NCBI RefSeq assembly: GCF_056712565.1
Contig: NZ_CM160072.1
Length of the DNA stretch: 64,000 nt
Direction: 5' to 3' (one strand)
This document shows, piece by piece, positions 12,964 through 28,341 of the stretch (position 1 is its first letter; each line of letters starts with the position of its first letter). The position numbers were made by a program, and so were the translations under genes. The notes below the pieces were generated by a model. The model did not search any database, had not been told where the DNA came from, and saw only the letters and a list, made by a program, of their open reading frames with translations.

Positions 12964-14379
12964 GTGAAACAAAGCACTATTGCACTGGCACTCTTACCGT
13001 TACTGTTTACCCCCGTGACAAAAGCCCGGACACCAGAAATGCCTGTTCTGGAAAACCGGGCTGCTCAGGGCGATATTACTGCACCCGGTGGTGCTCGCCG
13101 CTTAACGGGTGATCAGACCGCCGCTCTGCGTGATTCTCTTAGCGATAAACCTGCAAAAAATATTATTTTGCTGATTGGCGATGGGATGGGGGACTCGGAA
13201 ATTACTGCCGCACGCAATTATGCCGAAGGTGCGGGCGGCTTTTTTAAAGGTATTGATGCCTTACCGCTTACCGGGCAATACACTCACTATGCGCTGAATA
13301 AAAAAACCGGCAAACCGGACTACGTCACCGACTCGGCTGCATCAGCAACCGCCTGGTCAACAGGTGTCAAAACCTATAATGGCGCGCTGGGCGTCGATAT
13401 TCACGAAAAAGATCACCCAACGATTCTGGAAATGGCAAAAGCCGCAGGTCTGGCGACCGGTAACGTTTCTACCGCAGAGTTGCAGGATGCCACGCCCGCT
13501 GCGCTGGTGGCGCATGTGACCTCGCGCAAATGCTACGGTCCGAGTGCGACCAGTGAAAAATGTCCGGGTAACGCTCTGGAAAAAGGCGGAAAAGGATCGA
13601 TTACCGAACAGCTGCTTAACGCCCGTGCCGATGTTACGCTTGGCGGCGGTGCAAAAACCTTTGCTGAAACGGCAACCGCCGGTGAATGGCAGGGAAAAAC
13701 GCTGCGTGAACAGGCACAGGCGCGTGGTTATCAGTTGGTGAGCGATACTGCCTCACTGAATTCGGTGACGGAAGCGAATCAGCAAAAACCCCTATTAGGA
13801 CTGTTTGCTGACGGCAATATGCCAGTGCGCTGGCAAGGACCGAAAGCAACGTACCACGGTAATATAGATAAGCCCGCAGTCACCTGTACGCCTAATCCGC
13901 AACGTAATGACAGTGTACCGACCCTGGCGCAGATGACCGACAAAGCCATTGAATTGTTGAGTAAAAATGAGAAAGGCTTTTTCCTGCAAGTTGAAGGTGC
14001 GTCAATCGATAAACAGGATCACGCAGCGAATCCTTGTGGGCAAATTGGCGAGACGGTCGATCTCGATGAAGCCGTACAACGGGCGCTGGAATTCGCTAAA
14101 AAGGATGGTAACACGTTGGTCATAGTCACCGCTGATCACGCCCATGCCAGCCAGATAGTTGCGCCGGATACCAAAGCTCCGGGCCTCACCCAGGCGCTAA
14201 ATACCAAAGATGGCGCAGTGATGGTGATGAGTTACGGGAACTCCGAAGAGGATTCACAAGAACATACCGGCAGTCAGTTGCGTATTGCGGCGTATGGCCC
14301 GCATGCCGCCAATGTTGTTGGACTGACCGACCAGACCGATCTCTTCTACACCATGAAAGCCGCCCTGGGGCTGAAATAA
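12964..14379 (+). CDS. phoA: alkaline phosphatase
   Basis: GTG start at 12964 gives signal peptide [21 protein letters not shown] then [30 protein letters not shown]...; 471 aa; ORF-track start 12895 rejected. Confidence 0.96.
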
Positions 14380-14385
14380 AACCGC

Positions 14386-14422
14386 GCCCGGCAGTGAATT
14401 TTCGCTGCCGGGTGGTTTTTTT
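14386..14422 (+). terminator. rho-independent terminator-like hairpin after phoA
   Basis: GCCCGGCAG-loop-CTGCCGGGT followed by TTTTTTT. Confidence 0.7.
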
Positions 14423-14497
14423 GCTGTTAGCAACCAGACTTAATGGCAGATCACGGGCGCATACGCTCATGGTTAAAACATGAAGAGGGATGGTGCG

Positions 14498-14818
14498 ATG
14501 AAAATTACATTACTGGTTACCTTGCTTTTCGGTCTGGTTTTTTTAACCACCGTCGGCGCTGCCGAGAGAACCTTAACCCCACAACAACAGCGTATGACCT
14601 CTTGTAATCAGCAGGCGACGGCGCAGGCGTTGAAAGGGGATGCTCGTAAGACCTACATGAGTGATTGCCTGAAGAACAGCAAATCTGCGCCTGGTGAAAA
14701 AAGTTTGACGCCACAGCAGCAAAAGATGCGCGAATGTAATAATCAAGCAACACAACAATCTCTGAAAGGGGATGATCGTAATAAGTTTATGAGTGCCTGC
14801 CTCAAGAAAGCCGCCTGA
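14498..14818 (+). CDS. psiF: phosphate-starvation-inducible protein PsiF
   Basis: MKITLLVTLLFGLVFLTTVGA signal peptide; two tandem ~34-aa Cys-containing repeats; ATG 14498 chosen over GTG 14480. Confidence 0.9.
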   Translation: MKITLLVTLLFGLVFLTTVGAAERTLTPQQQRMTSCNQQATAQALKGDARKTYMSDCLKNSKSAPGEKSLTPQQQKMRECNNQATQQSLKGDDRNKFMSACLKKAA

Positions 14819-14835
14819 TACCTGATAGTGCTAAC

Positions 14836-14861
14836 GGGTGAGCTACGAAAATGGCTCACCC
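14836..14861 (+). terminator. hairpin downstream of psiF (weak U-tract)
   Basis: GGGTGAGC-loop-GCTCACCC. Confidence 0.4.
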
Positions 14862-14919
14862 GAAATTTCATACTTCTGCCTTTAGCCCCGTCTCTATAAT
14901 TTGGGAAAATTGTTTCTGA

Positions 14920-16035
14920 ATGTTCCCAAAAATAATGAATGATGAAAACTTTTTCAAAAAAGCGGCGGCGCATGGGGAGGAACCTCCTTTAACTCCTCAA
15001 AACGAACATCAGCGGTCCGGGCTGCGCTTTGCCCGTCGCGTCAGACTACCCCGCGCGGTTGGCCTGGCTGGCATGTTCTTACCGATTGCTTCAACGCTGG
15101 TTTCGCATCCGTCGCCGGGCTGGTGGTGGCTGTTGTTGGTCGGCTGGGCGTTCGTCTGGCCGCATTTAGCCTGGCAAATAGCGAGCAGGGCCGTCGATCC
15201 GCTTAGCCGGGAAATTTACAACTTAAAAACCGATGCAGTATTAGCGGGAATGTGGGTAGGCGTAATGGGCGTAAACGCACTGCCTTCCACCGCGATGTTG
15301 ATGATTATGTGTCTGAATTTGATGGGGGCAGGCGGCCCCCGTCTGTTTGTCGCGGGTCTGGTGTTGATGGTGGTCTCCTGCCTTGTCACCCTCGAGCTGA
15401 CGGGCATCACCGTGTCGTTCAATAGCGCACCGCTGGAATGGTGGCTCTCCCTTCCCATTATTGTCATTTATCCTCTGCTGTTTGGCTGGGTCAGCTACCA
15501 GACGGCGACTAAACTGGCGGAACATAAACGCAGGTTGCAGGTCATGAGTACCCGCGACGGTATGACGGGCGTGTATAACCGACGTCATTGGGAAACTATG
15601 TTACGCAATGAATTTGATAACTGTCGGCGGCATAATCGCGATGCAACGTTACTGATTATCGATATCGACCATTTCAAGAGCATCAACGATACCTGGGGCC
15701 ATGATGTGGGTGATGAAGCGATTGTGGCGCTTACCCGACAGTTACAAATTACCCTGCGCGGTAGCGATGTGATTGGTCGGTTTGGCGGCGATGAGTTTGC
15801 AGTAATCATGTCCGGTACGCCAGCTGAGAGCGCCATCACCGCCATGTTACGGGTGCATGAAGGGCTAAACACGTTACGCTTGCCGAATACGCCACAGGTA
15901 ACTTTACGGATTAGTGTGGGGGTTGCGCCGCTGAATCCACAAATGAGTCACTATCGCGAGTGGTTGAAATCGGCAGATTTGGCGCTCTACAAAGCAAAGA
16001 AAGCCGGACGTAACCGCACCGAAGTGGCGGCCTGA
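14920..16035 (+). CDS. dgcC: membrane-anchored diguanylate cyclase (AdrA/YaiC)
   Basis: 371 aa; N-terminal membrane segments; C-terminal GGDEF domain with RFGGDEF. Confidence 0.93.
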   Translation: MFPKIMNDENFFKKAAAHGEEPPLTPQNEHQRSGLRFARRVRLPRAVGLAGMFLPIASTLVSHPSPGWWWLLLVGWAFVWPHLAWQIASRAVDPLSREIYNLKTDAVLAGMWVGVMGVNALPSTAMLMIMCLNLMGAGGPRLFVAGLVLMVVSCLVTLELTGITVSFNSAPLEWWLSLPIIVIYPLLFGWVSYQTATKLAEHKRRLQVMSTRDGMTGVYNRRHWETMLRNEFDNCRRHNRDATLLIIDIDHFKSINDTWGHDVGDEAIVALTRQLQITLRGSDVIGRFGGDEFAVIMSGTPAESAITAMLRVHEGLNTLRLPNTPQVTLRISVGVAPLNPQMSHYREWLKSADLALYKAKKAGRNRTEVAA

Positions 16036-28297: not shown

Positions 28298-28341
28298 CTT
28301 TTCATAAATCTGTCATAAATCTGACGCATAATGACGTCGCA
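28298..28341 (+). promoter_or_regulatory. Pho box region of the phoB promoter
   Basis: CTTTTCATAAATCTGTCATAAATCTGACGCATAATGACGTCGCA: tandem TGTCAT-type repeats spaced ~11 bp. Confidence 0.75.

What the first reader, a model, noticed from the sequence alone, without database searches (positions are those of the whole stretch)
14573..14806. psiF consists of two tandem ~34-residue repeats, each with a conserved Cys pair
Seen in translation: LTPQQQRMTSCNQQATAQALKGDARKTYMSDCLK and LTPQQQKMRECNNQATQQSLKGDDRNKFMSACLK, separated by a 10-residue linker and following a signal peptide. This is an internal duplication in a secreted Pho-regulon protein whose function is unknown.
Basis: seen in the sequence. 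Interest (0 to 1): 0.3.

Follow-up and report, generated by a model that had tools for sequence, protein, structure and literature searches.

The report
PsiF's known two-hairpin cysteine repeat

Summary
The window is the E. coli chromosome (ddlA-iraP-phoA-psiF-adrA-proC). psiF (14498..14818, +, 106 aa) has an N-terminal hydrophobic signal-like segment. Repeat 1 is at 14573..14674, a 10-residue linker follows, and repeat 2 is at 14705..14806. The two repeats share 23/34 residues, and the self-alignment has z = 22 (0 of 20,000 shuffles reach it). Each repeat has Cys at positions 11 and 32.

It is not new. Pfam PF07769 "PsiF_repeat" (a 34-position model) matches twice (E 8.7e-34), and NCBIfam NF008560 names the protein PsiF.

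AlphaFold2 predicts each repeat as a helix-turn-helix hairpin (pLDDT 97 for a single repeat). The relative orientation of the two repeats is uncertain (pTM 0.42). The disulfides are inferred, not shown.

The family is large (1,120 clusters at 50% identity), nearly always has an export-type N-terminus, is basic (median pI 9.6), has 1-5 repeats, and both Cys are 98-100% conserved. It has no solved structural relative and no functional paper in the searched library.

Linkage to phoA is confined to Enterobacterales. Repeats within one protein resemble each other more than they resemble their positional counterparts elsewhere. My best mechanistic guess, at low confidence, is a periplasmic tandem binding module for an anionic partner.

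The parts
14498..14818 (+). psiF coding sequence (106 aa plus stop)
   Evidence: ORF list. RefSeq annotates this start in the 100%-identical ATCC 11775 record. NCBIfam NF008560 PsiF equivalog scores 234.5 bits against a cut-off of 165. A Shine-Dalgarno GAGG at 14485-14488 lies 9 nt before the ATG at 14498.
14498..14563 (+). Predicted Sec signal peptide (aa 1-21/22; n-region MK, hydrophobic core ITLLVTLLFGLVFLTTV, c-region GAA)
   Evidence: Hydropathy windows reach 1.9-2.7 over aa 1-21 and fall below 0.3 afterwards. 131 of 134 full-length family representatives have such a segment. The cleavage site is inferred.
14573..14674 (+). PsiF repeat 1 (aa 26-59, LTPQQQRMTSCNQQATAQALKGDARKTYMSDCLK); Cys36 codon at 14603-14605, Cys57 codon at 14666-14668
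   Evidence: Pfam PF07769 best stretch is aa 27-59. AF2 predicts helices 28-42 and 47-63 with pLDDT above 90.
14675..14704 (+). 10-residue linker NSKSAPGEKS (aa 60-69)
   Evidence: pLDDT is about 61 in this block. Linker length ranges from 4 to 37 residues (median 10) across two-repeat relatives.
14705..14806 (+). PsiF repeat 2 (aa 70-103, LTPQQQKMRECNNQATQQSLKGDDRNKFMSACLK); Cys80 codon at 14735-14737, Cys101 codon at 14798-14800
   Evidence: This is the second PF07769 stretch. AF2 predicts helices 72-86 and 91-104 with pLDDT 91-97.
12884..12901 (+). Pho box (CTGTCATAAAGTTGTCAC) upstream of phoA, the only Pho-box-like site 5' of psiF
   Evidence: Pattern search with 2 mismatches finds 3 sites in the window against 0.22 expected by chance. 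The phoA-psiF operon is PhoB-bound and PhoB-activated according to PMC10294691.
12964..14379 (+). phoA (alkaline phosphatase), the upstream gene of the reported phoA-psiF transcription unit
   Evidence: RefSeq annotation of the identical record; ORF list.
14385..14422 (+). Intrinsic-terminator-like hairpin (13-bp stem, 9 G-C pairs) plus T7 tract between phoA and psiF
   Evidence: It must be read through, or bypassed by an unrecognised promoter, for psiF to be expressed.

Best explanation
The feature is the canonical PsiF repeat (Pfam PF07769) in E. coli psiF. Shown here: the gene encodes an N-terminal Sec-type signal segment and then two 34-residue modules joined by a 10-residue linker. The modules derive from an old intragenic duplication (68% amino-acid identity, little residual similarity at third codon positions). 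Predicted: each module folds on its own as an antiparallel helix-turn-helix hairpin, with helix 1 starting at a T-P-Q-Q capping motif, a turn at L-K-G-D, then helix 2. One invariant Cys sits on each helix at mirror positions. The two hairpins behave as beads on a flexible string, not as one packed domain. Inferred: in the oxidising periplasm each Cys pair (C36-C57, C80-C101) forms a disulfide that staples its hairpin. This would give a ~9.4 kDa, strongly basic (pI ~9.7, net +8) mature protein. Expression comes from the PhoB-activated phoA promoter by read-through of the phoA terminator (from the literature). My mechanistic commitment, inferred at roughly 0.25-0.3 on its own: the conserved polar and basic residues not needed for the hairpin core (Q29/Q30, K/R32, N37, K46, R50, K51 and their repeat-2 equivalents) form a binding surface for an anionic periplasmic partner. 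Candidates are a phosphate-bearing envelope or substrate molecule, or an unfolded or acidic client protein. Tandem copies (1-5 across the family) would add avidity. The confidence figure below refers to the identity, architecture and origin, not to the ligand.
For: Identity: PF07769 matches twice, E 8.7e-34, 115.5 bits against a cut-off of 21. NF008560 scores 234.5 against 165. DNA is 100% identical to E. coli ATCC 11775, where the gene is annotated psiF between phoA and adrA, and the region is present in 5,425 of 5,426 complete E. coli genomes. Duplication: z = 22. Hairpins: AF2 on the whole protein gives pLDDT above 90 in both repeats and ~61 in the linker, with pTM 0.42. AF2 on a single repeat with a 54-sequence alignment gives mean pLDDT 97.1, helices 3-17 and 22-33. 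Modularity: repeat number is 1-5 among 150 cluster representatives and linkers are 4-37 residues. Cys pair: 100% and 98% conserved over 330 repeats. 128 of 134 proteins have an even Cys count, and 123 of 134 have no Cys outside the repeats. Export and charge are family-wide: 131 of 134 have a hydrophobic N-terminus, median pI is 9.6, and 96% exceed pI 8.5. Weak covariation between the helices (pairs 7-32, 17-23, 13-30, 12-25, index sums 37-43 against 41 for the two Cys) fits an antiparallel register. Regulation: a Pho box lies only upstream of phoA, and phoA-psiF is PhoB-bound and positively regulated (PMC10294691).
Against: No coordinates were available, so the Cys-Cys distance in the models was not measured, and no experiment on PsiF redox state was found. 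The conserved Met three residues before each Cys (M-x-x-C twice per repeat, ~90% conserved) would also fit a Cys2Met2 metal site. Most conserved residues could be purely structural in so small a domain, so the 'binding surface' is weakly grounded. Outside Enterobacterales there is no phoA neighbour (0 of 75 loci) and no enrichment of Pho boxes upstream of homologues. A phosphate-specific role is therefore not a family property. A strong terminator-like hairpin lies between phoA and psiF, and psiF is reported as RpoS-dependent (PMC2907692), so the simple operon picture may be incomplete.
Confidence: 0.8

Rival explanations
1. The apparent repeat is a by-product of biased (Gln/Lys/Ala-rich) composition, or of a recent DNA-level tandem duplication or slippage, and is not an old, selected protein repeat.
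For: The mature protein is compositionally skewed (12 Q, 10 A and 10 K in 85 residues).
Against: Composition-preserving shuffles never approach the observed score (z = 22, 0 of 20,000). A curated 34-position Pfam model matches both copies. Tandem Repeats Finder reports nothing, and only 15/34 third codon positions match. In E. coli, the same codon is used at 10/20 homologous same-residue positions against 30/69 non-homologous ones, so there is no sign of recent DNA exchange.
Confidence: 0.01
2. The four Cys are not disulfide staples. Together with the conserved Met three residues upstream (M-x-x-C, twice per repeat), they form a Cys2Met2 site in each hairpin that binds a soft metal (Zn or Cu). 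PsiF would then act as a periplasmic metal buffer or donor, for example for the Zn enzyme PhoA encoded just upstream.
For: Met at repeat positions 8 and 29 is ~90% conserved and is rarely replaced by Leu or Ile, which is unusual for a purely structural core residue. In E. coli the gene is co-transcribed with phoA. PhoA being a Zn/Mg metalloenzyme is my own knowledge.
Against: Paired Cys in exported proteins of the oxidising periplasm are normally disulfides (general knowledge). There are no conserved His, Asp or Glu ligands. The phoA association is absent in 75 of 75 non-enterobacterial loci. No Pfam metal-binding family matches. M33/M54 sit on the predicted inter-helix face where core residues are expected (helix periodicity).
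Confidence: 0.12
3. The two repeats are not independent modules. They pack against each other into a single four-helix bundle domain, or mediate dimerisation, and the tandem arrangement is needed for folding, not for avidity.
For: Two repeats is by far the commonest architecture (109 of 150 representatives, though the query biases this). Repeats within one protein are more alike than positional counterparts between proteins (0.70-0.75 against 0.57-0.65), as expected if they co-evolve in contact.
Against: pTM is only 0.42 even though each repeat has pLDDT above 90. A lone repeat is predicted with pLDDT 97. Repeat number varies from 1 to 5, and linkers vary from 4 to 37 residues and are low-confidence.
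Confidence: 0.15
4. PsiF is a general envelope or stationary-phase stress protein (a Spy/CpxP-like periplasmic holdase or oxidant sink). Its Pho regulation in E. coli would be a secondary consequence of sitting behind phoA.
For: There is no phoA linkage and no Pho-box enrichment outside Enterobacterales. psiF is reported 73-fold RpoS-dependent in EDL933, in a paper that does not mention phoA. ASKA psiF clones appeared in an H2O2-resistance screen (PMC8228696), and overproduction changed persister resuscitation (bioRxiv 10.1101/2021.04.10.439273). PsiF is basic, helical and periplasmic, and each helix 1 starts with LTPxQ as in Spy and CpxP.
Against: Profile comparison with Spy and CpxP gives 1.6-2.1% probability, with only the 5-12-residue LTPxQ start aligning. 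The LTXXQ Pfam family does not match PsiF. The screen and overexpression data are indirect and come from long gene lists.
Confidence: 0.25

Closest known systems
Pfam PF07769 PsiF_repeat / NCBIfam NF008560 (phosphate starvation-inducible protein PsiF)
   Same: It is this family. The 34-position repeat model matches twice, far above threshold. The full-length equivalog model matches residues 1-106. The gene lies between phoA and adrA, as psiF does in annotated E. coli genomes.
   Different: Nothing differs. The window's protein is the E. coli reference PsiF itself.
Plant alpha-hairpinins (vicilin-buried peptides such as VBP-8 6o3q, Luffin P1 6o3s, nigellin 2nb2)
   Different: Alpha-hairpinins carry two disulfides from a CX3C...CX3C pattern, whereas the PsiF repeat has one Cys per helix (C-x20-C). 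Sequence identity is 9-20%, scores are non-significant (Foldseek E above 3), and the kingdom and biogenesis differ. This is an analogy only.
Small Tim proteins / twin-CX3C and CHCH twin-CX9C helical hairpins of the mitochondrial intermembrane space
   Different: They have two disulfides per hairpin with fixed CX3C or CX9C spacing, and no sequence relationship to PsiF. PsiF has a single Cys pair and occurs as tandem modules.
Spy / CpxP / ZraP (Pfam PF07813 LTXXQ), periplasmic stress-induced helical-hairpin proteins of E. coli
   Same: They are periplasmic, stress-induced and alpha-helical hairpin based. Their helices begin with LTxxQ (LTPEQ in Spy 130-134 and CpxP 124-128, LTPQQ at the start of both PsiF repeats).
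   Different: hhalign probability is 1.6-2.1% and only the motif aligns. PF07813 does not match PsiF. Spy and CpxP lack the Cys pair and are single ~100-residue domains. The motif is probably a generic helix N-cap.

Membership tests
Pfam PF07769 PsiF_repeat | Match to the 34-position repeat HMM above the gathering score (21 bits) | tested here: met
   115.5 bits, E 8.7e-34, two stretches; the best stretch covers aa 27-59 and profile positions 2-34 of 34.
Pfam PF07769 PsiF_repeat | Conserved Cys pair and core motif QQx[KR]MxxCNxxA...LKG[DE]xRKxFMxxCLK | tested here: met
   Both E. coli repeats carry C11/C32, N12, A15, G22, R25, F/Y28, M29 and L33. Over 330 family repeats, Cys is 100%/98% conserved, G 96%, R 97% and A 97%.
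NCBIfam NF008560 PsiF (equivalog) | Full-length match above the curated cut-off (165 bits) | tested here: met
   234.5 bits, E 1.2e-70, residues 1-106 on profile positions 1-106.
E. coli Pho regulon (phoA-psiF operon) | Position directly downstream of phoA, with a Pho box at the phoA promoter | tested here: met
   phoA is at 12964..14379 and psiF at 14498..14818. The Pho box CTGTCATAAAGTTGTCAC is at 12884..12901.
E. coli Pho regulon (phoA-psiF operon) | PhoB-dependent induction under phosphate limitation | not testable with these tools
   Taken from the literature: ChIP-seq plus RNA-seq in PMC10294691. A terminator-like hairpin between the two genes leaves the transcript structure unverified here.
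Plant alpha-hairpinins | Two inter-helix disulfides from a CX3C-(n)-CX3C motif | tested here: not met
   There is only one Cys per helix (C-x20-C) and no CX3C. The structural matches are non-significant.
Twin-CX3C (small Tim) / twin-CX9C (CHCH) hairpins | Paired CX3C or CX9C motifs on the two helices | tested here: not met
Pfam PF07813 LTXXQ (Spy/CpxP/ZraP) | Detectable sequence or profile homology to the LTXXQ domain | tested here: not met
   PF07813 is not among the Pfam hits at E up to 1. hhalign of the repeat profile against Spy and CpxP gives 1.6% and 2.1% probability.

The most novel reading that the evidence does not exclude
The PsiF repeat may be an uncharacterised, very widespread periplasmic module: at least 1,120 clusters at 50% identity, mainly in Beta- and Gammaproteobacteria. 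It would be a 34-residue, single-disulfide alpha-hairpin whose conserved basic and polar face (or, alternatively, a Cys2Met2 site) binds a specific anionic or metal ligand. It would be used in 1-5 tandem copies for avidity, with the copies kept alike within each protein by concerted evolution. Identifying the ligand would finally assign a function to one of the last unexplained members of the E. coli Pho regulon.
Probability: 0.2. Interest if true: 0.4.

Novelty: already known. Interest (0 to 1): 0.12.

Why it matters
The finding as stated adds nothing new, because the repeat is the founding member of a curated Pfam family. It is still worth recording that PsiF remains without a solved structure or an assigned function, despite being in the classic Pho regulon and present in essentially every E. 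coli genome. The comparative data gathered here narrow the experiments. The family is exported, basic and built from Cys-paired hairpins. Phosphate linkage holds only in Enterobacterales. There is no conserved gene partner. Together these features suggest a self-contained binding module and argue against an enzyme or a dedicated PhoA accessory factor.

Tried and rejected
(2) The afdb50 fold library was not available.
(3) The locus search with the 81-sequence alignment failed because no stretch was conserved enough. It was repeated with a 19-sequence alignment.
(4) Metagenome contigs for distant members were too short, or lacked DNA, to give useful context.
(5) Neighbour clustering over 80 genomic loci found only lineage-specific synteny: argS/SPOR/dsbA in Comamonadaceae, and rpoN-hpf-hprK in Rhodocyclales. 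A GGDEF protein lay within three genes in 7 loci. There was no universal partner.
(6) A Pho-box scan upstream of 80 homologues showed no enrichment over control genes (3.8% against 2.5% at 11 or more of 14 positions).
(7) Domain fusions: only one was found, a partial NMT1/THI5-like binding-protein domain plus two repeats in P0262. This is too thin to use.
(8) Mutual-information covariation within the repeat is weak, with a top MIp of 0.085.
(9) Rfam found nothing relevant in 14300..15000.
(10) Homology to Spy/CpxP, suggested by the shared LTPxQ motif, was rejected by hhalign.
(11) Literature searches for PF07769, 'PsiF repeat' and PsiF+DsbA found only transcriptome or screen listings.

Full report
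**What the region is.**
- The 701 bases around the finding are 100% identical to E. coli ATCC 11775. The region is present in 5,425 of 5,426 complete E. coli genomes.
- RefSeq annotates the order ddlA, iraP, phoA, psiF, adrA, proC, yaiI, aroL.
- psiF occupies 14498..14818 on the + strand and encodes 106 aa.
- An in-frame ATG at 14480 would add six residues. The GAGG at 14485-14488, 9 nt before the ATG at 14498, favours the annotated start.

**Checking the observation.**
- Repeat 1 is aa 26-59 (14573..14674). The linker NSKSAPGEKS is aa 60-69. Repeat 2 is aa 70-103 (14705..14806).
- The repeats share 23/34 residues. Both have Cys at repeat positions 11 and 32 (C36, C57, C80, C101).
- A local alignment of the two halves scores 131, against 23.8 +/- 4.8 for 20,000 composition-preserving shuffles (z = 22, none reach it). 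The Gln-rich composition is therefore not the cause.
- At the DNA level the copies are 68/102 identical, with 27, 26 and 15 of 34 matches at codon positions 1, 2 and 3.
- Tandem Repeats Finder reports nothing. The only repeated DNA word is the 12-mer encoding LKGD.
- This is an old duplication held together by selection on the protein.
- The N-terminus (MK, a 17-residue hydrophobic core, then GAA) is a standard Sec signal by hydropathy.

**It is already catalogued.**
- Pfam PF07769 'PsiF_repeat', a 34-position model, matches twice (E 8.7e-34, 115.5 bits against a cut-off of 21).
- NCBIfam NF008560 (equivalog, 'phosphate starvation-inducible protein PsiF') matches end to end (234.5 bits against 165).
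- The finding restates the definition of a curated family.

**Structure.**
- AlphaFold2 was run with an 81-sequence alignment of two-repeat relatives. Each repeat comes out as a helix-turn-helix hairpin (helices 28-42/47-63 and 72-86/91-104).
- pLDDT is 91-97 inside the repeats and ~61 in the linker, and pTM is 0.42. The hairpins are confident but their mutual orientation is not.
- One repeat modelled alone with 54 aligned repeats gives mean pLDDT 97.1, with helices 3-17 and 22-33.
- The two Cys lie on opposite helices at mirror positions about the turn. So does the conserved pair A40/F(Y)53.
- The weak covarying inter-helix pairs have index sums of 37-43, around the 41 of the Cys pair.
- I could not read coordinates, so the disulfide itself is inferred. 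The inference rests on the export signal, near-invariant Cys, and an even Cys count in 128 of 134 relatives.
- No solved structure is related by sequence.

**The family.**
- An exhaustive HMMER scan of 1.84 billion cluster representatives finds 1,120 clusters at E <= 1e-3 and 322 at E <= 1e-10.
- Among the best 150, repeat number is 1 (7, mostly fragments), 2 (109), 3 (32), 4 (1) and 5 (1).
- Linkers between repeats range from 4 to 37 residues.
- The consensus is T-P-Q-Q-x-[KR]-M-x-x-C-N-x-x-A-x-x-K-x-L-K-G-[DE]-x-R-K-x-F-M-x-x-C-L-K.
- Conservation over 330 repeats is Cys 100%/98%, G 96%, R 97%, A 97%, N 90%, F/Y 98% and the two Met ~90%.
- 131 of 134 full-length members have a hydrophobic N-terminus. 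96% are basic, with median pI 9.6.
- A scan of one genome per species finds at least 597 loci. The best 80 are nearly all Beta- and Gammaproteobacteria: Comamonadaceae, Oxalobacteraceae, Rhodocyclales including Accumulibacter, Xanthomonadales and Enterobacterales.

**Genomic context and regulation.**
- In the window, the only Pho box 5' of psiF is at the phoA promoter (12884..12901).
- Published ChIP-seq and RNA-seq treat phoA-psiF as one PhoB-activated operon (PMC10294691).
- A strong terminator-like hairpin with a T7 tract lies between the two genes at 14385..14422.
- One study lists psiF as 73-fold RpoS-dependent without mentioning phoA (PMC2907692).
- The transcript architecture therefore deserves a direct look.
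- Across the 80 loci, PhoA is the upstream neighbour in 5 of 5 Enterobacterales and in none of the other 75.
- Pho-box-like sites are not enriched upstream of homologues.
- No neighbour is conserved beyond lineage-specific synteny.
- 'Phosphate starvation-inducible' therefore describes the enterobacterial gene's location and is not a demonstrated property of the family.

**Evolution of the repeats.**
- In 189 two-repeat proteins, repeat 1 and repeat 2 of the same protein are on average 70% identical.
- Between proteins, repeat 1 against repeat 1 (60%), repeat 2 against repeat 2 (63%) and repeat 1 against repeat 2 (61%) are indistinguishable.
- Binned by divergence, a positional (orthologous) signal appears only among close relatives.
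- Across 79 genes, the same codon is used at 69% of homologous same-residue positions against 58% of non-homologous ones in the same gene (Fisher p 1.6e-16; the loci are not phylogenetically independent).
- This suggests intragenic concerted evolution or repeated re-duplication in many lineages.
- In E. coli and its close relatives the signal is absent (10/20 against 30/69).

**Function.**
- I found no paper that assigns a function or a structure.
- The literature offers only indirect hints:
  - induction in vivo in S. Typhi (PMC3236720);
  - an ASKA clone in an H2O2-resistance screen (PMC8228696);
  - an effect of overproduction on persister resuscitation (bioRxiv 10.1101/2021.04.10.439273);
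  - listings in Pseudomonas omics tables.
- My best guess rests on export, basic charge, conserved polar residues beyond the hairpin core, variable copy number and flexible linkers. On that basis I favour a periplasmic tandem binding module for an anionic partner.
- Rival readings are a Cys2Met2 metal site, a single four-helix domain, and a Spy/CpxP-like stress protein.
- The last was prompted by the shared LTPxQ helix start. Profile comparison gives only 1.6-2.1% probability, so it is at most an analogy.

**Verdict.** Interest is low. The residual value is that PsiF remains an uncharacterised, structurally unsolved Pho-regulon protein for which specific tests can now be stated.

Noticed in passing
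window 14385..14422 (+), between the phoA stop (14379) and the psiF start (14498): A strong intrinsic-terminator-like hairpin (13-bp stem, 9 G-C pairs, then T7, with an A-tract on the 5' side) sits inside what the literature calls the phoA-psiF operon. The consensus scan finds no sigma-70-like promoter between it and psiF. One paper lists psiF as 73-fold RpoS-dependent and does not mention phoA. psiF expression may depend on regulated read-through or on an unrecognised promoter.
   Followed up: partly
family-wide: loci L003-L082 and proteins P0121-P0267: Repeats within one PsiF-family protein are more alike (70-75% identity) than positionally equivalent repeats in other proteins (57-65%). They also share codons more often than expected (69% against 58%). 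This suggests concerted evolution or repeated re-duplication. The signal is absent in E. coli itself.
   Followed up: partly
loci L004, L007, L012, L022, L031, L049, L068; window 14920..16035 (adrA): A GGDEF or GGDEF-EAL protein lies within three genes downstream of the psiF homologue in 7 of 80 loci from several proteobacterial orders. This echoes the psiF-adrA adjacency in E. coli. It may be chance, because such genes are abundant.
   Followed up: no
protein P0262 (276 aa, metagenomic): This is a single case of a partial NMT1/THI5-like periplasmic solute-binding domain (aa 36-172) fused to two PsiF repeats. It could be a real fusion or a gene-calling artefact.
   Followed up: no
window 14498..14815 (PsiF protein): There is a sub-threshold match to NCBIfam TIGR04453 'Lepto_8Cys' (Cys-rich protein, E 2.4e-4, 21.5 bits against a cut-off of 34). 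This hints at a distant eight-Cys relative family in Leptospira.
   Followed up: no
window 28299..28327 (+): Two overlapping Pho-box matches (TTTTCATAAATCTGTCAT and CTGTCATAAATCTGACGC) lie about 14 kb downstream of psiF. They are presumably the phoBR promoter. This was not checked.
   Followed up: no
loci L017, L018, L026, L030, L039, L046, L070, L076 (Comamonadaceae): A DsbA-like thiol:disulfide oxidoreductase gene lies three genes upstream of the psiF homologue, within a conserved argS-SPOR-dsbA block. This is probably lineage synteny and not a functional link.
   Followed up: no
protein P0243 (62 aa): This is an enterobacterial variant with the PsiF signal peptide followed by a single repeat. 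It looks like a deletion by recombination between the two repeats.
   Followed up: no
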